DNA of 64,000 nt from an uncultured Candidatus Saccharibacteria bacterium. GTDB lineage: Bacteria; Patescibacteriota; Doudnabacteria; UBA920. The stretch is from NCBI GenBank assembly GCA_964483665.1, contig CAZACP010000004.1, forward strand, positions 7,399 through 71,398, in the 5' to 3' direction. A program made the position numbers and the translations under genes. Under the pieces are notes generated by a model, which searched no databases, was not told the DNA's origin, and was given only the letters and a program-made list of their open reading frames with translations. Below are positions 13,632-45,620 of the stretch, in pieces. Each line of letters opens with the position of its first letter. The stretch's first letter is position 1.

Positions 13632-14675
13632 TTATCGTATAAAACTCGCTTCAAATGCCCATTTGGTGCACTGGTCTAACTGGCTTTGTGTTAGAATTCC
13701 ATTTTTCCTTAAAAATTCTTCTTCGTGCACAATATTACTTTTGTACATTTCCGGCCCGTCGGTATTTATGGTAAATTTTACACCGTGCTTTATAAGCGTA
13801 TGAATAATATTTTTTAAATCTGAAACATTTTTAACCACGCTATTGCGTAAATTCGACGTCGGACAAATTTCCAAAGTAATATTATTTTTTACCATAGCTT
13901 CCATAATTTTTTTGTCTTTTACGCACAAAATTCCGTGTCCTATTCTGTTTGGCTTAATTTCATTAACTACATATTTTAACTCTTCTAAACTCCCCGCTTC
14001 TCCGGTATGAATGGTTATGCCCAAGCCGGCTTCCCTTGCTCTTTTAAAAAGCGGCGCATGCTTTTTCATTGAAAAAGTTTTTCTTTCAGGGTCGGCAATA
14101 TCAAGGCCAATAACGCCCTCATTTTTATACTTAATGGCTTTGTTGGCAATTATTTCATTTTGCGTAAAACTTAAAGACCTGCCCATCATTAAAATAATTC
14201 CGGCTCTAACTTGAGGGTATTCAAGCATGGCACGCTCAGTGCCCCAAAGCGCGGAATATATAGTGTGGTCCAAATCCCGCTCGCCGCTTCTGTTGCGCTT
14301 CATGGGGTTAAACCTCAATTCATGCAGCACAATATTGCTTTTCCTAAATCCTCCGGCAATAGTTCCCTTTACCGACTCTTCTATCGCTTCGGGCGAAGAC
14401 TGTATTAGTTCGGTCCAATGGAAAAAATTCTTGTCCATTTGGTCAAGGTTTTTGTTTTTTTCCTCACCCGTCATAGTTATCATGTCTTCAAACTCCCAGT
14501 AACTTTTGGTGGGAAGCTTTATGCCTTGCCTGTGCGAAATCGCCCATAAAATGGAAGGGTGTACAGCCGAGCCCAAATGCGAATGAAGCTCTACGTGTTG
14601 TTTAAAAATTTTTTGAGGCACTTTAAATACGTTTAATATAAAACTAATAATAACAAATTTCAGGGATTCTGACAA
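13632..14675 (-). CDS. add: Adenosine deaminase family protein
   Basis: The motifs HSHLGSAV, TIHTGEAG, RIGHG and FTINTDGP are typical of the adenosine/AMP deaminase fold. Confidence 0.75.
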   Translation of the reverse strand: MSESLKFVIISFILNVFKVPQKIFKQHVELHSHLGSAVHPSILWAISHRQGIKLPTKSYWEFEDMITMTGEEKNKNLDQMDKNFFHWTELIQSSPEAIEESVKGTIAGGFRKSNIVLHELRFNPMKRNRSGERDLDHTIYSALWGTERAMLEYPQVRAGIILMMGRSLSFTQNEIIANKAIKYKNEGVIGLDIADPERKTFSMKKHAPLFKRAREAGLGITIHTGEAGSLEELKYVVNEIKPNRIGHGILCVKDKKIMEAMVKNNITLEICPTSNLRNSVVKNVSDLKNIIHTLIKHGVKFTINTDGPEMYKSNIVHEEEFLRKNGILTQSQLDQCTKWAFEASFIR

Positions 14676-14789
14676 CGTCCTGGTATTTTTAAAAAATACG
14701 AAATACGAAACAAACTAAAAATTCTAATTTATGAATTTTAAAAACTAAAATTTTTCGAATTTCGGATTTAGTGCTTCGAATTTTTAGCT

Positions 14790-16523
14790 TTATCTTGTTT
14801 CTCTTGTCGGAGGGATTTGGAAATAATTAACCAAATACTGCGCCAGCTGGCCAAAAGCCGGTGCCGCGGTGCTTTCCGCAAACTTTACTGTTTTTGGCTT
14901 GTCTATACGAACAAGCATTAAAAATTTTGGGTCTTCCACGGGACCAAAGCCAATAAAGGTGCCTATGTTTACATTTTCTTCATATCCAAGGCCGTTAATT
15001 TTAGGAACCTGGGCTGTGCCGGTCTTCCCCGCAATATAGTAGCCAGGAACACCAGCTCTTTTTCCGTGTCCGTTTTCCACGACATTTACCATCATGGCGG
15101 TTACGGTATTGGCGGTTTGAGCAGAAATTATTTGCCTTACTTCCTTAACTTTGGTGTCAGTTCTTTGGCCTTCCGGAGAAATTCTACTGGCAACAATATA
15201 TGGCTTAAGCATCTTGCCTGAATTTGGAAATGCGGTAAAGGCTTGTATGAGCTGTATGGGCGTTACTGTTAAACCCTGGCCAAAACTGGCTGTTGCGAAG
15301 TTTACATTAATATTTGCCTTTAGGTTGTCTAAATTACCTTTTCTCTCCATTAACTCAATCCCGGTTTTTTCACCAAAACCAAATTTTTTTACGTATTCTA
15401 AAAATTTTTGATTCCCGATTTGGTCTTTAACAAAAATCAAGCCCGTATTTAAAGATTCTTCCAGTACTTGTGTCATTGTCTGCAGGCCCCTTGGTTTTGG
15501 GTCAGAATTTTTTATAGTTTTGTCATCTATTTTTACAAACCCCTCGTCCACAAAAGTCGTATCCGGAGTTATTTTGCCTTCGTTTAAAGCCGCGGCCATG
15601 GTTAAAGGTTTAAATACGCTTCCTGGTTCATAAGAACCTATGGTGGCTTCGTTGTTAAAAGCGGCCGGGTCAGTTACTTCGCTGTATTTATTTGGGTCAA
15701 AATCTGGGAAACCGGCCATAGCCAAAATTTTTCCGGTTTTTGGGTCAGCGATTATTACCGTCCCGCTAGTCGCCTCATTTTTTTCCACCGTTTCTTTTAA
15801 AACTTTTTGAGCCTCGTACTGGATATTTTTGTCTATGGTTAAAATTAGAGAGTCACCGTCTTTTGCGGCATCCAGCTGCCTATTGCCGCCAAAAATCCAG
15901 GCTCCGCTTATATCGCCCTCCTGTTTTAAAACTCCTTCTTTTCCGGCTAATTCACTTTCAAAAAAACTTTCAAGCCCGTAAACCCCTTGCTTTGTATCGC
16001 CCTTATAGCCAACAAATCCCAGCACCTGGGAAAGTAAGGATCCTTGCGGATAGTACCTAAAACCTTCGTGGTCAAAATATATACCGCTTAACTTTATTTC
16101 CTTAATTTTATTTACTTCTTCATCGCTGAGCTGTTTTTTTAAAACCACATATTTTTTTTGCTTGTTTGCCAGCTTGTTTAAAAGCTCGTTATGTTCTAAA
16201 GACAAGACCGAAGAAAGACTGGCTGCTGCTAAAACCGGATTTTGAATCTCGCCCGGTACGGCATAAACCAGCGGTTTTTGAATATTGGTAGCCACAGGCA
16301 AAAGCTGGTCGGTCGAGTTTTCAATTAAATTTATTTCCCCCCTTGTGGGCAAAAGTTTTAAAACCATATTCCTTTGCGCTTCCGCCCTGGCTTTACTCTC
16401 CTTGCCGCGAACTATTTGCAAATATCCAAGCCGTAAAACAATTATAAAAAAACATACTATAAAAAAAGCAGCCAATAAACTGCTTCTTAGGTCTAATGGA
16501 TTTTTAACCTTTCTCTGCACCAT
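14790..16523 (-). CDS. ftsI: Penicillin-binding protein (FtsI/PBP2-type transpeptidase)
   Basis: N-terminal TM helix. The motifs are SVFKP (SxxK) and KTGTAQ (KTG). It is positioned after ftsL in the dcw cluster. Confidence 0.85.
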   Translation of the reverse strand: MVQRKVKNPLDLRSSLLAAFFIVCFFIIVLRLGYLQIVRGKESKARAEAQRNMVLKLLPTRGEINLIENSTDQLLPVATNIQKPLVYAVPGEIQNPVLAAASLSSVLSLEHNELLNKLANKQKKYVVLKKQLSDEEVNKIKEIKLSGIYFDHEGFRYYPQGSLLSQVLGFVGYKGDTKQGVYGLESFFESELAGKEGVLKQEGDISGAWIFGGNRQLDAAKDGDSLILTIDKNIQYEAQKVLKETVEKNEATSGTVIIADPKTGKILAMAGFPDFDPNKYSEVTDPAAFNNEATIGSYEPGSVFKPLTMAAALNEGKITPDTTFVDEGFVKIDDKTIKNSDPKPRGLQTMTQVLEESLNTGLIFVKDQIGNQKFLEYVKKFGFGEKTGIELMERKGNLDNLKANINVNFATASFGQGLTVTPIQLIQAFTAFPNSGKMLKPYIVASRISPEGQRTDTKVKEVRQIISAQTANTVTAMMVNVVENGHGKRAGVPGYYIAGKTGTAQVPKINGLGYEENVNIGTFIGFGPVEDPKFLMLVRIDKPKTVKFAESTAAPAFGQLAQYLVNYFQIPPTRETR

Positions 16524-16632
16524 AGTTTAGTAAAATTGACGTTGCTAGATTCTGTAGTTTTCCCCGCCTACAACGCATATGTCGTAGCATTTCGGGCAGG
16601 TGTAGTGTATTTCTATTTGTTATTCTGTAGCT

Positions 16633-16998
16633 TTACTTTAATGCCGTAGCCGGCGCTTGTAAAGTTACAAAAGTCGGCGCCCCTGCCTGGACAAAACCGC
16701 TTTTGGAAAAATCGTCCGTTAAAACTGAAATAGCTGTTGCTTCAGACATTTTTAAATTTAAAGCTTTTTGGGTTTCATTCAATTTTTGGGCTTGTTTCTG
16801 CAACTCCTTTATTTCATAGCCGGTAGAGGCTCTGGCGTTTACTCCGAGCAAATAGCTTAAAAGCAAGGCCGCGTTAACCGCAATTATGGCATAAAGCAGC
16901 CATGGCCTTTGTTGCTCTACTCCAAAATTTCGCCTGGCAGCGGAAATTTGCGGGCGAGCGCTGAAAAATAAATTTTGTAATATGTCGGTTTTTATCAT
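16633..16998 (-). CDS. ftsL: Cell division protein FtsL-like
   Basis: Single TM helix plus coiled coil, sitting between rsmH and ftsI. The start is trimmed to MIKTD at 16998. Confidence 0.5.
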   Translation of the reverse strand: MIKTDILQNLFFSARPQISAARRNFGVEQQRPWLLYAIIAVNAALLLSYLLGVNARASTGYEIKELQKQAQKLNETQKALNLKMSEATAISVLTDDFSKSGFVQAGAPTFVTLQAPATALK

Positions 16999-17004
16999 AT
17001 GTTT

Positions 17005-17078
17005 TTTTGCTTGCCCCGTTAAATAATTCGCTTGTCGAATTGCCGTCAGAGGCGGCATTTAACAGGGTGAATTTTTTG
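17005..17078. repeat. Structured multi-hairpin element (copy 2)
   Basis: ccccgttaaataattcgcttgtcgaattgccgtcagaggcggcatttaacaggg. The stems are conserved relative to 2878-2940 with compensatory substitutions. Confidence 0.5.
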
Positions 17079-17175
17079 TTTTAATTTTTGCTTGTCCGTC
17101 TAAATGTCCCGCCCAGGCGGGACTTTTGACGAGCTTTTGTTTTTTAGTTAATTGTTAATCGTCAATTGTTAATTG

Positions 17176-18153
17176 TTACAGCTTCACTATTGCCCTTAAT
17201 TTAGCGGGCTTTGAGCGAGGATTATTTTTTAATTCGTTTTCAGAAGCAGTTACTATTTTTTTGGTTAATATTTTTCCTTGAGGATTTTTGCCACACACAC
17301 ATTGAGGGAAATCTATTGGGCATACGCAGCCTTTACTTAAGCTATTAAAGTATTGTTTTACTATTCTGTCTTCAAGCGAATGGAAGCTTACTATTACTAG
17401 CCTGCCGCCCGGGTTTAAAAGGTCAAAACTTTTTGGCAAAAACTCTTCTAAGGCTTCCAGCTCATGGTTAACCGCTATTCTTAAGGCTTGAAATATTCTT
17501 CTGGCTGAATCATCGGCGCGATGTTTTACAGGCTTAGGAAGTGAATCATGGATTATTTGATAGAGTTCTGTTGTATAGCGGATTTGGCTCTTAGATCTTG
17601 ATTCTTGGATCTTCCTTGCTATCTGGCGGCTAAACTTTTCCTCACCGTAATCGCTAAATATTTTACTAAGCTCCTGTTCGCTTCTGTTATTTAGTAAAAA
17701 ACTTGCGTCTTCGGGTTTAGTTTGATCAAACCGCATGTCTAGCGGCTCTTTTTTCTGAAAGCTAAATCCCCGCCCAGACTGGTCAAGTTCATATGACGAA
17801 AGTCCCAAATCTGCAACAATGCCTGAAATATTATTAAACTCATGTTCTTTTGTTATTTTGTTTATGTTTTGAAAATTGCCGTGCACCGCTATCACTCCCT
17901 CTCCCTCTGGGAGAGGGCCGGGGTGAGGGTGTTTGATATTTGTCCGCCAGTTTGCGGATTGAAATTTGAAATTCTCAATCGCATCCTTGTCCAAATCTAT
18001 AACCAACAACTTGCCGCCCGGAGATATTTTTTGCAAGATCGTCTTACTATACCCTCCTCCGCCTAGCGTCGCGTCGACAAAATTCTCACCGGGCTTAGGG
18101 TTAAGAAAGTAAATAACTTCCTCAAGTAATACTGGAATATGTTCATAATTCAT
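17176..18153 (-). CDS. rsmH: 16S rRNA (cytosine1402-N4)-methyltransferase RsmH/MraW
   Basis: MNYEHIPVLLEEV...DATLGGGGYS and a C-terminal FHSLEDRIVK. It contains an in-frame repeat-derived insert. Confidence 0.85.
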   Translation of the reverse strand: MNYEHIPVLLEEVIYFLNPKPGENFVDATLGGGGYSKTILQKISPGGKLLVIDLDKDAIENFKFQSANWRTNIKHPHPGPLPEGEGVIAVHGNFQNINKITKEHEFNNISGIVADLGLSSYELDQSGRGFSFQKKEPLDMRFDQTKPEDASFLLNNRSEQELSKIFSDYGEEKFSRQIARKIQESRSKSQIRYTTELYQIIHDSLPKPVKHRADDSARRIFQALRIAVNHELEALEEFLPKSFDLLNPGGRLVIVSFHSLEDRIVKQYFNSLSKGCVCPIDFPQCVCGKNPQGKILTKKIVTASENELKNNPRSKPAKLRAIVKL

Positions 18154-18585
18154 TTAAACTCCTAGGCTCCCTAATTGTTCTGCTATTTGATTACTCGCGG
18201 CTTCGGTTTGCTGTTTGTACGCTTTCCACAGTTCTTCGCTCCAAATTTCTATGCGGTTATACAGTCCGGCAATTACTGCTTTTTTCCCAATTTTTGCAAA
18301 TTCCTTTAAATAGGTCGGTAAAATTATTCTGCCTTGCTTGTCTATTTCACAGTCCATAGCCCCGGCTAACATTAAACGGCTAAAGGCTCTGGTATTTGCC
18401 GTGGCAATTGGCAAGCTGGAAAGTTTTTCCGCCAATTTCTTCCATTCTTCCATTGAGTAAAGAAACAACGAATTGTCTAAACCCCTGGTAACAACGACTT
18501 TTCTTTTAAGTTCTGCTCTAAATTTGGCCGGAACTGAAATTCTGCCCTTTTCATCTATACTTGCTTGATATTCACCTATGAACAT
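18154..18585 (-). CDS. mraZ: Transcriptional regulator MraZ
   Basis: 143 aa, two-domain MraZ with DEKGRISVP and DKQGRIILP motifs. Confidence 0.85.
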   Translation of the reverse strand: MFIGEYQASIDEKGRISVPAKFRAELKRKVVVTRGLDNSLFLYSMEEWKKLAEKLSSLPIATANTRAFSRLMLAGAMDCEIDKQGRIILPTYLKEFAKIGKKAVIAGLYNRIEIWSEELWKAYKQQTEAASNQIAEQLGSLGV

Positions 18586-18769
18586 ATGAGCCGCTGTTTT
18601 CTCGCTGATCGGAACGCTGAGAGATCGCCGATGCTGTTTTTTCAGTGTCAGTTCAGCGTTTCTTTCTTCTGCGACAAATCCGCGTTTTAAGGAGAGACCA
18701 GCCCCGGTTTTCTTAAAAAGCCAGAGCTGGAAGCCGTAAATGACTTACAATTTAAGATGTTTTAGTTTT

Positions 18770-18806
18770 TCCACTTTACTTCCCACTTTTTCCCACCAAA
18801 ACCCAC
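18770..18806 (-). promoter_or_regulatory. MraZ operator: GTGGG direct repeats at exact 10-bp spacing
   Basis: Plus-strand CCCAC at 18782, 18792 and 18802, with a degenerate copy at 18771. On the mraZ strand this reads GTGGG-N5-GTGGG-N5-GTGGG, immediately 3' of the -10 box. Confidence 0.6.
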
Positions 18807-18824
18807 TTTTTAACATCTAAAGCA

Positions 18825-18853
18825 ATTATACCCCACCTTTTAACACCAGTCAA
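18825..18853 (-). promoter_or_regulatory. Consensus sigma-70 promoter for the dcw cluster (TTGACT-N17-TATAAT)
   Basis: On the minus strand: ttgact ggtgttaaaaggtgggg tataat. Confidence 0.55.
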
Positions 18854-19039
18854 AACTATTTGAGCATAAAAAAACAGCCGTTTCATTGGCTATTTCTAAT
18901 ATCTACCTTCCAATATTTAATATCTTCTTAATCTATCCACAGAACAAATAAAAAAACCTAAGAGAATCTCTGGGGTTAAATAACAAACATTTGATTACAA
19001 CATATTTGTTTGTTTTTAGGAAATTTTAAAAATTTTCAA

Positions 19040-19078
19040 ATAAAAACGGCGTGCTATTCCTCCATATAGCACGCGCGT
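19040..19078 (-). terminator. Rho-independent terminator
   Basis: On the minus strand: gcgtgctat-atggaggaat-agcacgc followed by a U-run. Confidence 0.55.
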
Positions 19079-19091
19079 TTCGCTGGTTAGT

Positions 19092-19871
19092 TCAGTCTTT
19101 TGGATTGAACGGGGCCAAAAACGCGGCAAGCTGTTCAAGCTTCCTAGCCAGTACAATATTCTCACCTTGAAGCCTGACGATGGCAGCCTGGTTTTCTTCT
19201 CTCTCACGCCGAAGAGCATCTAGAAACCCAGGTAAGGTCTCTGAAAGCTGGGTCAACAACCTAAGAAAGGCATTGACCTGAGGCGCTTCAAAACATTCGA
19301 CAGAGCCTGAATTCGCACGTTTTTTCCCCCGAAGAGACTGTTTGACAACACCCCTGTTTTTACAGAATTGGTAATAGTAGGTCGAAACCCCACTGTACGT
19401 TGCCCCAGTAAACCCATTTGAGATGGCAAGCATAACAAGCCTGTTAATCTCTGGGGGTGATTCCGCGTCTGGATTGCCGTTTTGGTACACAAACGCTTTC
19501 AGCGTTAGTCTGACTCCATTTCCCACACCGGGTGGCTGAACCGGCTTTACTGCAAGGGGCTCGGGTTCGGCCAAACCCAAGACCCTATGTAGCTTCGTCT
19601 CAAAATCGTTCTGCGCTTCAACCTTCACATACACGCAGCCTTCAATCTCGCCCGCACCTTTTATGACCAAAGCGGTCGCGTTCTCTCTAATTGCAGATTC
19701 GCAGCACAGAACGTGGGTTGTGTTCGAAGGAAACCGGAAAGGGTTTCTTATATCTGCTGTCAAAACTACACCAATTCTCGTGTCATCTGTGACCAGTAGA
19801 GCCAACTCGTTGCTAGCCGTAGTGATGTTAAAACCCACCAACCAGATGCTTGCCCCACTCCCTTTCTCCAT
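19092..19871 (-). CDS. Hypothetical protein (GC-rich orphan ORF, about 50% GC)
   Basis: 259 aa. The C-terminal 60 aa form a heptad leucine zipper ending LEQLAAFLAP. Confidence 0.4.
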   Translation of the reverse strand: MEKGSGASIWLVGFNITTASNELALLVTDDTRIGVVLTADIRNPFRFPSNTTHVLCCESAIRENATALVIKGAGEIEGCVYVKVEAQNDFETKLHRVLGLAEPEPLAVKPVQPPGVGNGVRLTLKAFVYQNGNPDAESPPEINRLVMLAISNGFTGATYSGVSTYYYQFCKNRGVVKQSLRGKKRANSGSVECFEAPQVNAFLRLLTQLSETLPGFLDALRREREENQAAIVRLQGENIVLARKLEQLAAFLAPFNPKD

Positions 19872-20087: not shown

Positions 20088-20561
20088 TTATTTATACTTT
20101 GAAATCTCGTATGCTGCAACTCCGAACGCCACAGACACATTCAGACTTTCTTTTTGTCCAAACATAGGGATTTCTACCACCCTATCACAAAGCTTTAATA
20201 ATGCTTTTTCCACACCCCCAACTTCTTCGCCCAATATTAAAACCAAGGGAAACTTTGGTTTAAACTTGTTCAGCTTTATAGTTTTACCTTTTATATTGTT
20301 TTCAAGCGCAACAACCTGAATTTTTGGGTGTTTAAGTTTTAGCTCCTTAACTAACCTAACCGGTGAAATTTTATGTTCCCAAGGCACAAACTCTTCCGCC
20401 CCCAGCGCAGTTTTGCTAATTTTAACTTTATGCTTAAAAAGCTCCGGCGTAGGCGTATAGCCGGTTAAATAAATTTTACTTACAGAAAAAGCATCGGCAG
20501 TTCTAAACAGCGAACCAACGTTAAAAAGTGAGCGAATATTGTGAGCAACCACATAAAACAT
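20088..20561 (-). CDS. SpoU/TrmH-family RNA 2'-O-methyltransferase
   Basis: 157 aa with the C-terminal SpoU motif IPMFGQKESLNVSVAFGVAAYE. Confidence 0.7.
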   Translation of the reverse strand: MFYVVAHNIRSLFNVGSLFRTADAFSVSKIYLTGYTPTPELFKHKVKISKTALGAEEFVPWEHKISPVRLVKELKLKHPKIQVVALENNIKGKTIKLNKFKPKFPLVLILGEEVGGVEKALLKLCDRVVEIPMFGQKESLNVSVAFGVAAYEISKYK

Positions 20562-28924: not shown

Positions 28925-28985
28925 AATGAGCAAAAATGACAAAAATATAAGTACAGATGCATCTAAGTTTTTGTCATTTATTTTA
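28925..28985. repeat. Family G element (AAATGACAAAAAT ... TTTTTGTCATTT inverted repeat)
   Basis: Read directly from the sequence. Related copies occur at 29995-30130 and 53238-53285. Confidence 0.5.
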
Positions 28986-29990
28986 TCTGACGCTCAATAT
29001 ACTTCTCTTATAGCTGTCTAAATTATCTAAAGCAACGCCGGTTCCTTTTGCAACGCAAAGCAGCGCTTCTTCAGCCACATAGCACGGTACACCCACGCTT
29101 TGGCTAATATACTTATCTAAGTTTCTTAAAAGCGCGCTGCCGCCCGTCATAACCATACCTTTTTCTATAATGTCCGAAGCCAGCTCCGGCGGCGTGTCCT
29201 GCAAAACTATTTTTACAGCTTTGGCTATTTCATATAATTCCTCTCCTAACGCGTCAACAATCTCGTTGGTAGAAACATTTACAGTTTTGGGGAGTCCGGT
29301 TACCATATCGCGCCCTTTTATTTCCATAATTTCTTCTTCTTTAACCGGCAAAGCGCTGCCAATATTTATTTTTATTTCTTCGGCGGTTCGGTCGCCAATA
29401 GCTATGCCCTGTTTTTTTCTAACATATTCCACAATCGCCTGGTCGAGCTTGCTGCCCGCAACTCTGACCGAGGTAGAATTCACTATCCCGCCCAAAGACA
29501 AAACAGCCACGTCAGTAGTACCGCCGCCAATGTCTATAATTAAATTTCCTCTTGCTTCAGAAATAGGAATACCCGCGCCAATGGCCGCGGCAACTGTTTC
29601 CTTAATAACATACGCAGCCCTAGCCCCGGCCGCCTGCGCTGCTTCTATAACCGCTCTTCGTTCTGTAGAGGTAATGCCTCCGGGAACCGATATCATAACT
29701 TCGGGTCTGAAAAACCTTACCTTGCCCAAAGCCTTGTTTATAAAATAGCGCAGCATAGCCTCGGTTACCCTATAGTCGGCAATAACCCCGTCTTTCATAG
29801 GCCTGGACGCAACTATGGTTTCCGGCGTTCTGCCAAGCATGTCTTTTGCTTCCTGGCCCACTGCCAAAACCTTATTGTCAGCCAAAGAAATTGCCACAAC
29901 TGTTGGTTCGTTTATAATTATGCCTTTTTTGGGCAAATAAACGAGGGTATTTGCAGTTCCCAAGTCTATGCCGATTTTTGATTCAAACAT
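28983..29990 (-). CDS. mreB: Rod shape-determining protein MreB (actin-like ATPase)
   Basis: MFESKIGIDLGTANTLVY... and the overall actin-fold motifs. Confidence 0.9.
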   Translation of the reverse strand: MFESKIGIDLGTANTLVYLPKKGIIINEPTVVAISLADNKVLAVGQEAKDMLGRTPETIVASRPMKDGVIADYRVTEAMLRYFINKALGKVRFFRPEVMISVPGGITSTERRAVIEAAQAAGARAAYVIKETVAAAIGAGIPISEARGNLIIDIGGGTTDVAVLSLGGIVNSTSVRVAGSKLDQAIVEYVRKKQGIAIGDRTAEEIKINIGSALPVKEEEIMEIKGRDMVTGLPKTVNVSTNEIVDALGEELYEIAKAVKIVLQDTPPELASDIIEKGMVMTGGSALLRNLDKYISQSVGVPCYVAEEALLCVAKGTGVALDNLDSYKRSILSVR

Positions 29991-32018: not shown

Positions 32019-33746
32019 TTAAGATGATAACTGCCTAATATCTATAATTCTTAACTTTAATTGCTTATTCCCGTTCCATTCATCTTGCAATAATTCACAG
32101 GCTAAATCTAACTCTTGGCCTATTTGTAAACTGCTGTCTTTAGGCCCAAAATTAAAAGCGATGCAGGAAATTTGTCTGTTGCCTAAAGAAATTTTCATTT
32201 GCAAATGCTGTGCTTTTTGTCCCACAGCCCGCTTACTTAATATTTTAGCATTTTTCAGCAAAAATTTTGGTTTCGGGTTGCCAACCCCAAAAGGCTCTAA
32301 GGAAGCAATCAAGTTGTAAGTTGTAAGTTGTAAGTCTTCGGAGGAAAGTTCTGCGTCAATATTTAAAACAGGCCCGTCATCTTCTTCCATATTCTTTTCC
32401 GCAAAATCCAAAACGCTTTGGTAAAATATTTCAAAATTTTCCGTTTGCAAGGTAAGCCCCGCCGCCTGCTTATGCCCGCCATAGCGGATTAAATGCTGGC
32501 CGGAATATTTTAAAGCCTCAACTACATTAAATTCCCCCGCGCTTCTGGCCGACCCGGTCGCTTCAAACTCCCCCTTCTCCAGCACAATTGTGGGTTTATA
32601 AAATTCTTCGGCTAATTTGCCCGCAACTAACCCCACAACGCCTTTATGCCAACTTTCCCCCATTAACACCAAAACCTTCCTGTGAAGTATTCCTTGGGCT
32701 TTTTCTCTCGCTTCGCTCATTATCCGCGCTGTTATTTCCTGCCTTCGCAAATTTATTTCTTCAATATTTTGAGCTTGAATTTTTGCCTTTAAGGGATCGT
32801 TTTCTAACAAAAGTTCCAGGGCAACATTAGCGTGTTCAAGCCTTCCAGCCGCGTTTATCCTTGGTGCAATTACAAAACCTAAGGAATAAGTATCCAGCGG
32901 CTGCTTTGCAGGATCCAGCTTTGCTAAATCCATTAAAGCCCTAAGCCCAACCCACTTTGTTTTAGCTAAAACTTTAAGGCCATACTTAACAAAAATTCTA
33001 TTCTCGCCTATAAGCTTATGACAGTCAGCCACTGTGCCTATAGCCACAAGGTCTAATAGCCACTTTTCCCACCCTTGGGATGATTTCGGATTTCGTCCGC
33101 CAGCTGGCGGATCGGATTTCGGATTTTGCAGCAATGCCTGAGCGAGTTTAAAAGCCACGCCGACCCCAACAATTTGGTCATCCGGATAATTATCGTCTTG
33201 ATTTTTAGGGTTTATAAGCGCTAAAGCGTTTGGTAAATTTCCAATAATTTCATGGTGGTCGGTAATAATTAAGTCTATGTTATTTTCCTTGCACCATTCT
33301 GCGGCATCTACAGAATTTGTGCCGCAGTCCACGGTAATTATTACTTTTGAACCATGTTCTTTAATTTTTTTTAAGGCGTCTAAATTTACCCCGTACCCTT
33401 CCAAAAAACGGTCGGGTATATAACTTTCACAGTCCGCGCCCAAATAATTAAAGGCTTGGCGCAAAACCGCATTAGCGGTTATGGCGTCTGCGTCATAGTC
33501 GCCGTAAATAGTAATTTTTTCTTTATTCTCTATTGCCTGCCATATCCTGTTAACGGCTTTTTCCATATCGCGGAATAAAAACGGGCTATTAAGCCCTGTA
33601 GTATAGTCCGCGTTAATAAATTTTTTTATTTCTTCCGGTTCCTTAAGGCCGCGATCAAAAAGCAATTGCCTTAAAAGGACCGGGTAATCTTTATAAACTT
33701 CTTCCAGTTCTGTCGGAATATTGGGTTTTAATTTCCAAATTTTCAT
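32019..33746 (-). CDS. recJ: Single-stranded-DNA-specific exonuclease RecJ
   Basis: DHH motifs (YGDYDADAITANAVL and IITDHHE) and a DHHA1 domain. It has two in-frame repeat inserts. Confidence 0.85.
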   Translation of the reverse strand: MKIWKLKPNIPTELEEVYKDYPVLLRQLLFDRGLKEPEEIKKFINADYTTGLNSPFLFRDMEKAVNRIWQAIENKEKITIYGDYDADAITANAVLRQAFNYLGADCESYIPDRFLEGYGVNLDALKKIKEHGSKVIITVDCGTNSVDAAEWCKENNIDLIITDHHEIIGNLPNALALINPKNQDDNYPDDQIVGVGVAFKLAQALLQNPKSDPPAGGRNPKSSQGWEKWLLDLVAIGTVADCHKLIGENRIFVKYGLKVLAKTKWVGLRALMDLAKLDPAKQPLDTYSLGFVIAPRINAAGRLEHANVALELLLENDPLKAKIQAQNIEEINLRRQEITARIMSEAREKAQGILHRKVLVLMGESWHKGVVGLVAGKLAEEFYKPTIVLEKGEFEATGSARSAGEFNVVEALKYSGQHLIRYGGHKQAAGLTLQTENFEIFYQSVLDFAEKNMEEDDGPVLNIDAELSSEDLQLTTYNLIASLEPFGVGNPKPKFLLKNAKILSKRAVGQKAQHLQMKISLGNRQISCIAFNFGPKDSSLQIGQELDLACELLQDEWNGNKQLKLRIIDIRQLSS

Positions 33747-45511: not shown

Positions 45512-45620
45512 TCTCTCCCCTTTTAAGGGGAGATGTCACGAGTGTATCCGAGTGACAAAGAGGTTGTATACTACATCTACTGCAACCTCTCCCTAACCCT
45601 CTCCTTAAAAGGAGAGGGTA
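45512..45620. repeat. Family A composite element (4 hairpins: CTCCCC/GGGGAG, GTCAC/GTGAC, GAGGTTG/CAACCTC, CCCTCTCC/GGAGAGGG)
   Basis: Same stem set as 63043-63138 in inverted orientation, but with different loops. Confidence 0.7.

What the first reader, a model, noticed from the sequence alone, without database searches (positions are those of the whole stretch)
18770..18853. MraZ operator (three GTGGG repeats at 10-bp phasing) fused to a consensus sigma-70 promoter
On the mraZ strand the sequence reads TTGACT-N17-TATAAT, followed within 20 nt by GTGGG-N5-GTGGG-N5-GTGGG and a degenerate fourth repeat. This has the same arrangement as the E. coli Pmra / MraZ-binding direct repeats. A roughly 190-nt structured leader sits between the operator and the mraZ ATG. 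The consensus promoter and intact operator show that autoregulation of the dcw cluster is retained in this reduced genome.
Basis: partly seen in the sequence, partly recalled or inferred. Interest (0 to 1): 0.55.

Follow-up and report, generated by a model that had tools for sequence, protein, structure and literature searches.

The report
MraZ operator on the mraZ promoter
This is the ordinary self-control switch of the cell-division regulator MraZ, a row of GTGG boxes laid over its own promoter, found intact and strongly conserved in a tiny-genome Patescibacteria lineage (Doudnabacteria).

Summary
On the minus strand, TTGACT-N17-TATAAT (18853-18825) is followed after 18 nt by GTGGG-N5-GTGGG-N5-GTGGG (18806-18782), then a fourth GTGGA 12 bp on (18774). 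It lies upstream of a true mraZ (18585-18154), and it is the only such site in 64 kb. The organism is a Candidatus Doudnabacteria (Patescibacteria/CPR).

In 75 relatives with enough upstream DNA, all keep at least two phased boxes. 64 keep the exact GTGG triple, and 62 keep promoter and array in the same layout. The DNA around it diverges and is full of indels. E. coli Pmra, read directly, has the same GTGGG-N5 x3 just downstream of its -10. The MraZ here keeps the DNA-contact residues K13, R15 and R86.

- Two more phased boxes sit inside the -35/-10 spacer.
- A weak box lies near the predicted start site.
- A conserved distal TGTGGATAG lies about 110 bp upstream.

The "structured leader" claim fails. 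The leader folds no better than shuffles, is not conserved, and varies from 59 to 387 nt in relatives. Only one local hairpin is real.

Verdict: a new member of a known kind, with modest interest. Binding and repression are inferred, not shown.

The parts
18848..18853 (-). -35 hexamer TTGACT
   Evidence: TTGAC(C/T) is conserved in 44 group-1 relatives.
18843..18846 (-). Spacer box a, GTGT (relatives: aTGG). It lies 10 bp upstream of spacer box b.
   Evidence: Sequence. Consensus TTGACctaTGGgtttttGTGGtgTATAAT. GTG(G/T) is the general box core (PMC12957436).
18831..18836 (-). Spacer box b, GTGGGG. It abuts the -10 hexamer and lies 30 bp upstream of box 1.
   Evidence: A box in this position is present in 65 of 75 relatives.
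18825..18830 (-). -10 hexamer TATAAT. The predicted start site is about 18818/18817.
   Evidence: The start site is inferred from spacing only.
18813..18816 (-). Weak box c, ATGT (relatives: ATGG). It lies 10 bp upstream of box 1, at about the predicted start site.
   Evidence: consensus gtAatGgtAAAAagtGg.
18782..18806 (-). Core operator: GTGGG-N5-GTGGG-N5-GTGGG (boxes 1-3, at 18806, 18796 and 18786).
   Evidence: The exact GTGG triple is present in 64 of 75 relatives.
18770..18774 (-). Terminal box GTGGA, at a 12-bp step. Relatives have tGTGGATAA here; the window has aGTGGAAAA.
   Evidence: The terminal box sits 56-57 nt after the start of the -10 in 52 of 65 loci.
18933..18941 (-). Distal conserved box TGTGGATAG, 111 nt upstream of the -10 hexamer.
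   Evidence: It is present in 61 of 62 relatives, 100-124 nt upstream of the -10 in most. TGTGGATA occurs 80 times in sense orientation and 7 times antisense, against 9.5 expected, with 63 of the sense hits within 500 nt upstream of mraZ.
18868..18891 (-). Small hairpin AGCC-N8-GGCT plus T7, a weak terminator-like insulator just upstream of the -35.
   Evidence: Sequence. Relatives have a stronger hairpin plus T-run at the same place. The scan listed only the plus-strand reading.
18691..18730 (-). Leader hairpin CCAGCTCTGG-loop13-CCGGGGCTGG followed by TCTCTCC.
   Evidence: Fold -21.3 kcal/mol, z -2.4. It is shared with L001 and L006, with one compensatory pair, and absent from the other relatives.
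18586..18662 (-). ATG-proximal leader with CGCTGA/CACTGA words followed by TCGGCG/TCAGCG/TCAGCG/CAGCGG words. It is a degenerate modular hairpin with no Shine-Dalgarno sequence.
   Evidence: The fold is not better than shuffles (z -0.42). The segment is absent from L001 and L006.
18154..18585 (-). mraZ (143 aa), with D11-x-K13-x-R15 and D82-x-x-x-R86.
14790..18153 (-). Presumed co-transcribed genes: rsmH (18153-17176), an ftsL-like gene (17058-16633, no Pfam hit) and a class B PBP/ftsI (16523-14790).
   Evidence: No convincing minus-strand terminator lies between them. Co-transcription is inferred.

Best explanation
The segment 18853-18770 (minus strand) is the promoter of a short mraZ-rsmH-ftsL-like-ftsI operon, with the MraZ operator laid over it.

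A sigma-70-type RNA polymerase would use TTGACT-N17-TATAAT and start near 18818. MraZ, the first product of the transcript, recognises GTG(G/T) boxes that sit on one face of the helix at 10-bp steps. There are two in the -35/-10 spacer, a weak one at the start site, three strong GTGGG boxes at about +13 to +37, and a terminal box at about +45.

Neighbouring subunits of an opened MraZ ring would fill the boxes cooperatively, as seen in the M. genitalium cryo-EM structures. That would occlude the spacer and the start region, so the operon is repressed by its own product (negative autoregulation).

A conserved distal TGTGGATAG about 110 bp upstream may be an auxiliary site.

What is shown:
- the sequence anatomy
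- its non-random nature
- its conservation
- the conserved DNA-contact residues

What is inferred:
- the start site
- MraZ binding
- repression rather than activation
- any role for the distal box
For: - Exact motifs are unique in 64 kb.
- mraZ lies directly downstream.
- Its protein keeps K13/R15/R86 and both DxxxR motifs, which are the residues that contact the boxes in M. genitalium (PMC12957436).
- In 75 relatives, 75 keep at least two phased boxes, 64 keep the exact triple, 62 keep promoter plus array, and 65 keep a spacer box.
- Column conservation peaks on the hexamers and on GTGG at a 10-bp period, while the flanks diverge with large indels.
- E. coli has the same GTGGG-N5 x3 downstream of its -10.
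- The literature places the boxes downstream of the -10 and over the start site in E. coli, B. cenocepacia and M. genitalium, where MraZ represses.
Against: - No experiment exists for this lineage. The start site is only predicted.
- MraZ was reported as an activator in M. gallisepticum.
- The terminal and distal boxes carry an extended consensus, TGTGGATA(A/G), that the inner boxes lack. That consensus equals a DnaA box, so another protein could bind them.
- The terminal box is out of the 10-bp register (12 bp).
- The long, variable leader means other controls could act after initiation.
Confidence: 0.85

Rival explanations
1. Mixed site. The inner GTGG boxes bind MraZ, but the two TGTGGATA(A/G) boxes (distal 18941-18933; terminal 18774-18770 in relatives) are DnaA boxes. 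They would couple expression of the division genes to the replication initiator.
For: - In relatives the terminal box consensus tGTGGATAa is the reverse complement of TTATCCACA, and the distal box is tTGTGGATAg.
- Both share GGATA beyond the GTGG core.
- They are about 166-168 bp apart, in the same orientation.
- The word is strongly enriched only here.
Against: - In the window itself the terminal box is aGTGGAAAA (7 of 9), yet the region is otherwise intact.
- DnaA-box-like words are not enriched in the window: 9 found against 16 expected.
- There is no GC-skew switch.
- Box 2 in relatives reads GTGGGGATAA, so GGATAA may simply be part of this clade's MraZ box.
- The GTGG core is what MraZ reads.
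Confidence: 0.1
2. MraZ binds here but activates transcription rather than repressing it, or it acts mainly by looping between the distal and proximal boxes.
For: An activator role was reported in M. gallisepticum (cited in PMC12957436). The conserved distal box lies at a near-constant distance.
Against: Boxes lie inside the -35/-10 spacer and over the predicted start region. That placement blocks polymerase. The same placement goes with repression in E. coli, B. cenocepacia, B. subtilis and M. genitalium.
Confidence: 0.07
3. The G-rich repeats act as a G-quadruplex, or as an RNA element in the 5' UTR (GUGGG repeats pairing with C-rich leader segments such as UCUCUCC), rather than as a protein operator.
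For: - A G4 was proposed downstream of the S. aureus mraZ promoter (PMC11796246).
- The window's maximum G4Hunter score is 1.32.
- The boxes are transcribed if the start site is near 18818, and the minimum-free-energy fold pairs GGUGGG with UCUCUCC.
Against: - A canonical four-tract G3 motif is absent here and in 78 of 79 loci. Only GTGG, not GGG, is conserved.
- Strict 10-bp phasing that continues into the untranscribed spacer is a DNA-face signature.
- The leader partners are not conserved, and the fold is no better than shuffles.
Confidence: 0.04
4. Chance clustering of GTGGG words in an AT-rich intergenic region next to a fortuitous promoter-like match.
For: None beyond the fact that promoter-like matches as a class are not enriched in the local scan.
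Against: None of 100 shuffles gave a match. The site is unique in 64 kb, and it is conserved in position and phase across 60-75 species-level relatives.
Confidence: 0.01

Closest known systems
E. coli Pmra (mraZ1p) with the three MraZ direct repeats
   Same: It has the identical core, GTGGG-N5-GTGGG-N5-GTGGG, on the mraZ strand just downstream of the -10 of a TTGAC-type promoter, upstream of mraZ-rsmH-ftsL-ftsI (L081). MraZ represses its own operon there (cited in PMC7761207).
   Different: - In E. coli the triple starts 7 nt after the -10, the spacer has no boxes, and the ATG follows 20 nt after the last box (a 38-nt 5' UTR; PMC5089854).
- Here the triple starts 18 nt after the -10, and a weak box fills the E. 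coli position.
- There are also two spacer boxes, a terminal box at a 12-bp step and a distal box.
- The leader is about 232 nt.
- The E. coli operon runs on through the mur and fts genes. Here it ends after ftsI.
Mycoplasma genitalium four-box MraZ operator (cryo-EM entries 9QLG, 9QLR, 9R4J)
   Same: It has four or more GTG(G/T) boxes at a 10-bp period in a reduced genome. The start site lies inside or next to the first box, binding is cooperative and gives repression, and K13/R15/R86 are conserved.
   Different: - The box is AAAGTGT there and AAGTGGG here.
- All four M. genitalium boxes are in strict 10-bp register.
- No spacer or distal boxes are described there.
- The proteins are only distantly related (E 1e-18 to 4e-23).
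Bacillus subtilis MraZ binding repeats (GTGG[A/T]G-N4 x3) and Burkholderia cenocepacia PmraBc (four 7-nt repeats, 3-nt spacers)
   Same: Both have a GTGG core, a 10-bp period and a unique triple in the genome, and both are required for repression. In B. cenocepacia the repeats lie downstream of the -10 and over the start site, with a 100-nt 5' UTR.
   Different: They differ in flanking bases and in box number. Neither has a reported distal TGTGGATA box.
Rhodobacter sphaeroides UpsM, the long mraZ 5' UTR with an internal terminator
   Same: The untranslated leader ahead of mraZ is long, 268 nt there against about 232 nt here.
   Different: UpsM is conserved in its family, has a strong Rho-independent terminator and yields an sRNA. 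Here no terminator is called in the leader, there is no Rfam hit, and there is no conservation or excess stability.

Membership tests
MraZ operator (MraZ-binding repeats at the dcw promoter) | Three or more direct GTG(G/T)-core boxes at a 10-bp period | tested here: met
   GTGGG at 18806, 18796 and 18786. Further phased boxes lie at 18846, 18836 and 18816.
MraZ operator (MraZ-binding repeats at the dcw promoter) | Lies directly upstream of mraZ, on the same strand, at the head of mraZ-rsmH-ftsL-ftsI | tested here: met
   ORFs and Pfam hits. The ftsL-like gene is assigned by position and architecture only.
MraZ operator (MraZ-binding repeats at the dcw promoter) | Boxes overlap or directly follow the -10 and start site of the promoter | tested here: inconclusive
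   This is met for the predicted promoter. The start site itself cannot be mapped with these tools.
MraZ operator (MraZ-binding repeats at the dcw promoter) | Cognate MraZ has two SpoVT/AbrB-like halves, DxxxR motifs and K13/R15/R86 | tested here: met
   PF02381 matched in two stretches. D11, K13, R15, D82 and R86 are invariant in the alignment with E. coli and relatives. The protein aligns with PDB MraZ chains.
MraZ operator (MraZ-binding repeats at the dcw promoter) | Boxes and phasing conserved in relatives | tested here: met
   Of 75 relatives, 75 keep at least two boxes, 64 keep the exact triple and 62 keep promoter plus array.
MraZ operator (MraZ-binding repeats at the dcw promoter) | MraZ binds the boxes and changes transcription | not testable with these tools
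   This needs EMSA or footprinting and a reporter assay.
Sigma-70-type promoter | -35 and -10 hexamers at 16-18 bp spacing, conserved in relatives | tested here: met
   The match is 11 of 12 with a 17-bp spacer. The consensus TTGACc-N17-TATAAT holds in 44 group-1 loci, and TTGct/TTGaaa-N17-TATAaT in 19 group-2 loci.
Structured cis-regulatory leader (riboswitch or attenuator, UpsM-like) | Conserved sequence and structure, excess folding stability, or an internal terminator | tested here: not met
   - Fold z-scores are -0.86 and -0.42.
- There is no Rfam match.
- No leader terminator is called.
- The leader is not alignable and has large indels.
- Only one local hairpin stands out (z -2.4), shared with two relatives.
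G-quadruplex | Four G-tracts of three or more G with loops of 1-7 nt, conserved | tested here: not met
   It is absent in the window and in 78 of 79 loci.
DnaA box cluster / oriC | Several TTATCCACA-like boxes with a GC-skew switch | tested here: not met
   The window has 9 one-mismatch boxes against 16 expected, with no cluster. The skew is monotonic. Single DnaA boxes acting as regulatory sites are not excluded.

The most novel reading that the evidence does not exclude
In Doudnabacteria the MraZ operator may not be a simple three-box site. It may be an extended nucleoprotein complex: seven phased boxes from the -35 to about +50, plus a conserved TGTGGATA box about 110 bp upstream. In that reading an opened MraZ ring would wrap or loop the whole promoter. 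Alternatively, the two TGTGGATA boxes would be DnaA sites that tie division-gene expression to replication initiation in an organism with very few regulators.
Probability: 0.15. Interest if true: 0.55.

Novelty: new member of a known kind. Interest (0 to 1): 0.3.

Why it matters
- The MraZ autoregulatory switch keeps the same box sequence as in E. coli, despite the deep divergence, small genome and few regulators of this Patescibacteria lineage. This supports the view that the switch is ancient and general.
- The clade offers about 75 natural variants of one operator. They include spacer boxes and a distal box, and could guide binding and structural work on how MraZ rings engage more than four boxes.
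- The finding does not change the current picture of MraZ.

Tried and rejected
- **Rfam:** a permissive search of 18400-19200 and a gathering-threshold search of eight related loci found nothing credible.
- **tRNA/tmRNA:** a scan of eight loci found none.
- **Leader folds:** the whole leader and its ATG-proximal part fold no better than shuffles, so I dropped the "structured leader" idea except for one hairpin.
- **Tandem Repeats Finder:** it does not report the operator, because the units are too divergent outside GTGG.
- **Small ORFs in the leader and operator:** the 23-aa ORF starting at the ATGT box was rejected. Conservation there has a 10-bp period, not a 3-bp one, and the frames differ between relatives.
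- **oriC/DnaA cluster:** rejected.
- **G-quadruplex:** rejected as the conserved feature.
- **mraZ-specific leader element:** the CGCTGA/TCAGCG words in the leader were tested for this and rejected, because the same repeat style occurs ahead of many genes in the window.
- **Eraso et al. 2014 (PMC4010979):** the paper is not held, so I read the E. coli layout from the genome record instead.
- **Literature on MraZ in Patescibacteria:** among the 15 top-ranked papers listed, none contained MraZ together with a Patescibacteria/CPR term.

Full report
**What is there**

On the minus strand the window reads TTGACT (18853-18848), a 17-nt spacer, then TATAAT (18830-18825). After 18 nt come GTGGG (18806), GTGGG (18796) and GTGGG (18786), and a fourth GTGGA follows at 18774, a 12-bp step.
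- The promoter pattern has one exact match in 64 kb, against 0.03 expected. It scores 11 of 12 against the sigma-70 consensus.
- The triple has one match, and none in 100 shuffles.
- Relaxing it to GTGG-N6-GTGG-N6-GTGG with one mismatch still finds only this site.
- The ORF that starts at 18585 is MraZ (PF02381, E 2e-41). It is followed without a gap by RsmH, then a 141-aa membrane and coiled-coil protein in the FtsL position, then a class B penicillin-binding protein.
- The next gene downstream is an adenosine deaminase, so the dcw cluster here is a four-gene remnant.

**Whose genome**

The closest MraZ proteins and the 80 loci retrieved from species-representative genomes are almost all Candidatus Doudnabacteria or unclassified Patescibacteria assemblies. 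Their MraZ identity to the window ranges from 94% down to 65%. "Reduced genome" is a fair description.

**Conservation**

I anchored the relatives' upstream regions on the repeats. The same layout recurs almost everywhere. Among the 75 loci with at least 300 nt upstream:
- all 75 have at least two GTGG boxes 10 bp apart
- 64 have the exact GTGG-N6-GTGG-N6-GTGG
- 62 have a TTGnnn-N16-18-TAnnnT promoter followed by the array
- 65 have a box in the spacer next to the -10

The group-1 consensus (44 loci) is TTGACctaTGGgtttttGTGGtgTATAAT-N8-AatGgtAAAAagtGgataaAagtGGggAtAagtGG-N8-GTGGAtAa. Information peaks on the two hexamers and on GTGG at a 10-bp period. A second subclade (19 loci) has one more 10-bp box and a 20-bp step across the -10.

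A three-way alignment with the closest relatives shows the promoter and operator nearly invariant, while everything downstream is broken by long indels.

**The operator is larger than reported**

Besides boxes 1-3 and the terminal box, the window carries:
- GTGGGG at 18836-18831 inside the spacer, abutting the -10 and exactly 30 bp from box 1
- GTGT at 18846-18843, 10 bp further up
- a weak ATGT at 18816, where relatives have ATGG

This gives a phased series from about -30 to about +50.

A further conserved box, tTGTGGATA(g), lies 100-124 nt upstream of the -10 in most of the 61 of 62 relatives that carry it. In the window it is TGTGGATAG at 18941-18933. Across 397 kb of related loci, TGTGGATA occurs 80 times in the mraZ-sense orientation against 9.5 expected. 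The antisense count is 7, and 63 of the sense hits fall within 500 nt upstream of mraZ.

In relatives the terminal box shares this extended form, tGTGGATAa. The window has aGTGGAAAA.

**The protein**

The MraZ here aligns over its full length with the M. pneumoniae and M. genitalium structures. It keeps D11-x-K13-x-R15 and D82-x-x-x-R86. K13, R15 and R86 are the residues shown by cryo-EM and mutagenesis to read the boxes (PMC12957436).

**Comparison with known systems**

[quoted passage not shown] There are four boxes in M. genitalium, where the start site lies inside box 1 and binding is cooperative and repressive. B. subtilis has GTGG[A/T]G-N4 three times, a triple that is unique in its genome. 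B. cenocepacia has four repeats downstream of the -10, "as in E. coli", overlapping the start site.

I read the E. coli K-12 record directly. It shows TTGACA-N18-TAAACT-N7-GTGGGaaattGTGGGgcaaaGTGGG, with the ATG 20 nt later. The core of the window's site is thus letter for letter the E. coli pattern, in the same orientation and on the same side of the -10.

**Mechanism**

The best-supported reading is negative autoregulation by promoter occlusion. MraZ subunits fill phased boxes on one face of the DNA, across the spacer and the initially transcribed region, and block polymerase binding or escape. I put the confidence that this is the MraZ operator on the mraZ promoter at 0.85.
- Shown here: the anatomy, its non-randomness, its conservation and the conserved contact residues.
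- Inferred: the start site near 18818, actual binding, and the sign of regulation.

**Rivals**

1. The two TGTGGATA boxes match the DnaA box (TTATCCACA reversed), so another protein could bind them.
   - Against this, the window has no excess of such boxes and no skew switch.
   - The window's own terminal box is a poor DnaA box.
   - Box 2 of relatives reads GTGGGGATAA, so GGATAA may belong to the clade's MraZ box.
   - A regulatory DnaA site is not excluded (0.1).
2. MraZ could activate rather than repress, but the placement argues against it (0.07).
3. A G-quadruplex was proposed for S. aureus. Here only GTGG is conserved, not G3 tracts, and a canonical motif occurs in 1 of 79 loci.
4. Chance is excluded.

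**The leader**

The claim of a roughly 190-nt structured leader does not hold.
- From the terminal box to the ATG is 185 nt. From the predicted start site it is about 232 nt.
- The whole leader folds at -61.5 kcal/mol against -57.6 +/- 4.5 for shuffles (z -0.86). The last 90 nt give z -0.42.
- There is no Rfam match and no terminator call within the leader.
- In relatives the first core box lies 59 to 387 nt from the ATG, and the leader sequences are unrelated.
- One element is real: the hairpin CCAGCTCTGG-N13-CCGGGGCTGG (18730-18698; z -2.4). It is shared with L001 and L006 with one compensatory pair and absent elsewhere.
- The ATG-proximal 88 nt of the window are an insertion relative to those two relatives.

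**Context for the leader**

The ATG-proximal part holds CGCTGA-type words followed by TCAGCG-type words. In several relatives the equivalent region forms clean modular rods: three or four direct copies of a 6-nt word, then copies of its complement. These fold with z -3.7 to -5.3.

This is not specific to mraZ. In the window, 9 of 59 genes have three or more copies of a 5-mer in the last 50 nt before the start codon, against about 1% of coding windows. Examples lie ahead of recJ, secY and pgk, often with the complementary words upstream.

The genome also largely lacks Shine-Dalgarno sequences. That agrees with the reported loss of the anti-SD motif in a Parcubacteria subgroup (PMC9297842). The leader is best seen as fast-evolving UTR made of hairpin-forming insertions.

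**Verdict**

The finding is real and correctly identified, and it is ordinary in kind: a new member of the known MraZ operator class. Among the 15 top-ranked papers listed by the search, none contained MraZ together with a Patescibacteria/CPR term. The clade-specific extras are the spacer boxes, the out-of-register terminal box and the distal TGTGGATA box. They are modestly interesting and testable. Interest 0.3.

Noticed in passing
window, upstream of genes starting at 33746(-), 62510(-), 56506(-), 39478(-), 23853(-), 49973(-), 47467(-) and 18585(-); also L010, L013, L019 and L052, about 2400-2500: Many 5' UTRs end, just before the start codon, in 3-4 direct copies of a 6-8 nt word (CTACCAA, TCTGTAG, TCAGCG, TCCGTG, TTCTAAT). 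Copies of the reverse-complement word often precede them, giving a rod of short helices. The word differs by gene and by genome. 9 of 59 genes show this, against about 1% of coding windows. Relatives' mraZ versions fold with z -3.7 to -5.3. The function is unknown.
   Followed up: partly
window, all gene starts; mraZ starts in L001-L080: Shine-Dalgarno-like words are nearly absent upstream of start codons: 11 of 59 crude ORFs in the window, and almost none of 81 mraZ genes. This is consistent with the published loss of the anti-SD motif in a Parcubacteria subgroup (PMC9297842).
   Followed up: partly
window 18933-18941 (-); the equivalent position in 61 of 62 relatives: A conserved distal box tTGTGGATA(g) lies about 110 nt upstream of the mraZ -10, between the upstream gene's end and a small terminator. 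It has the same extended word as the terminal operator box in relatives and is identical to a DnaA box in reverse complement.
   Followed up: partly
window 17897-17917 (inside rsmH, 17176-18153 -); also 24629, 45094, 45597 and 63044: A perfect palindrome, CCCTCTCCC-N3-GGGAGAGGG, sits in frame inside rsmH. It adds roughly 11-13 residues (HPHPGPLPEGEGV) that L010's RsmH lacks. Four similar palindromes occur elsewhere in the window. The TCTCTCCTTAAAA in the mraZ leader resembles half of the one at 45597.
   Followed up: partly
window 19092-19871 (-): A 259-aa ORF with no Pfam hit lies between the SpoU-type methylase gene (20088-20561) and mraZ. In several relatives (L014, L017, L019, L043, L052, L069) the methylase gene ends directly upstream of the distal box, so this ORF looks like an insertion. 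It has its own strong terminator at 19074-19049.
   Followed up: no
L048, L054, L057, L062, L068, L070 and L074, about 60-110 nt upstream of the mraZ -10: In the second subclade the stretch between the distal box and the terminator carries CCCAC/CCAC words, which are inverted MraZ boxes. A conserved CTTAACTTAACAA lies further upstream. There is no Rfam or tRNA match. This could be an auxiliary inverted operator or a small transcript complementary to the GUGGG repeats.
   Followed up: no
window 13632-18585 (-): The dcw cluster is cut down to mraZ-rsmH-ftsL-like-ftsI and is followed by an adenosine deaminase gene. No mur or ftsW/Q/A/Z genes are adjacent. mreB lies at 28983-29990.
   Followed up: partly
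L022 about 2310-2340: A run of N followed by a long poly-G stretch lies upstream of mraZ in this assembly. It looks like an assembly or sequencing artefact.
   Followed up: no
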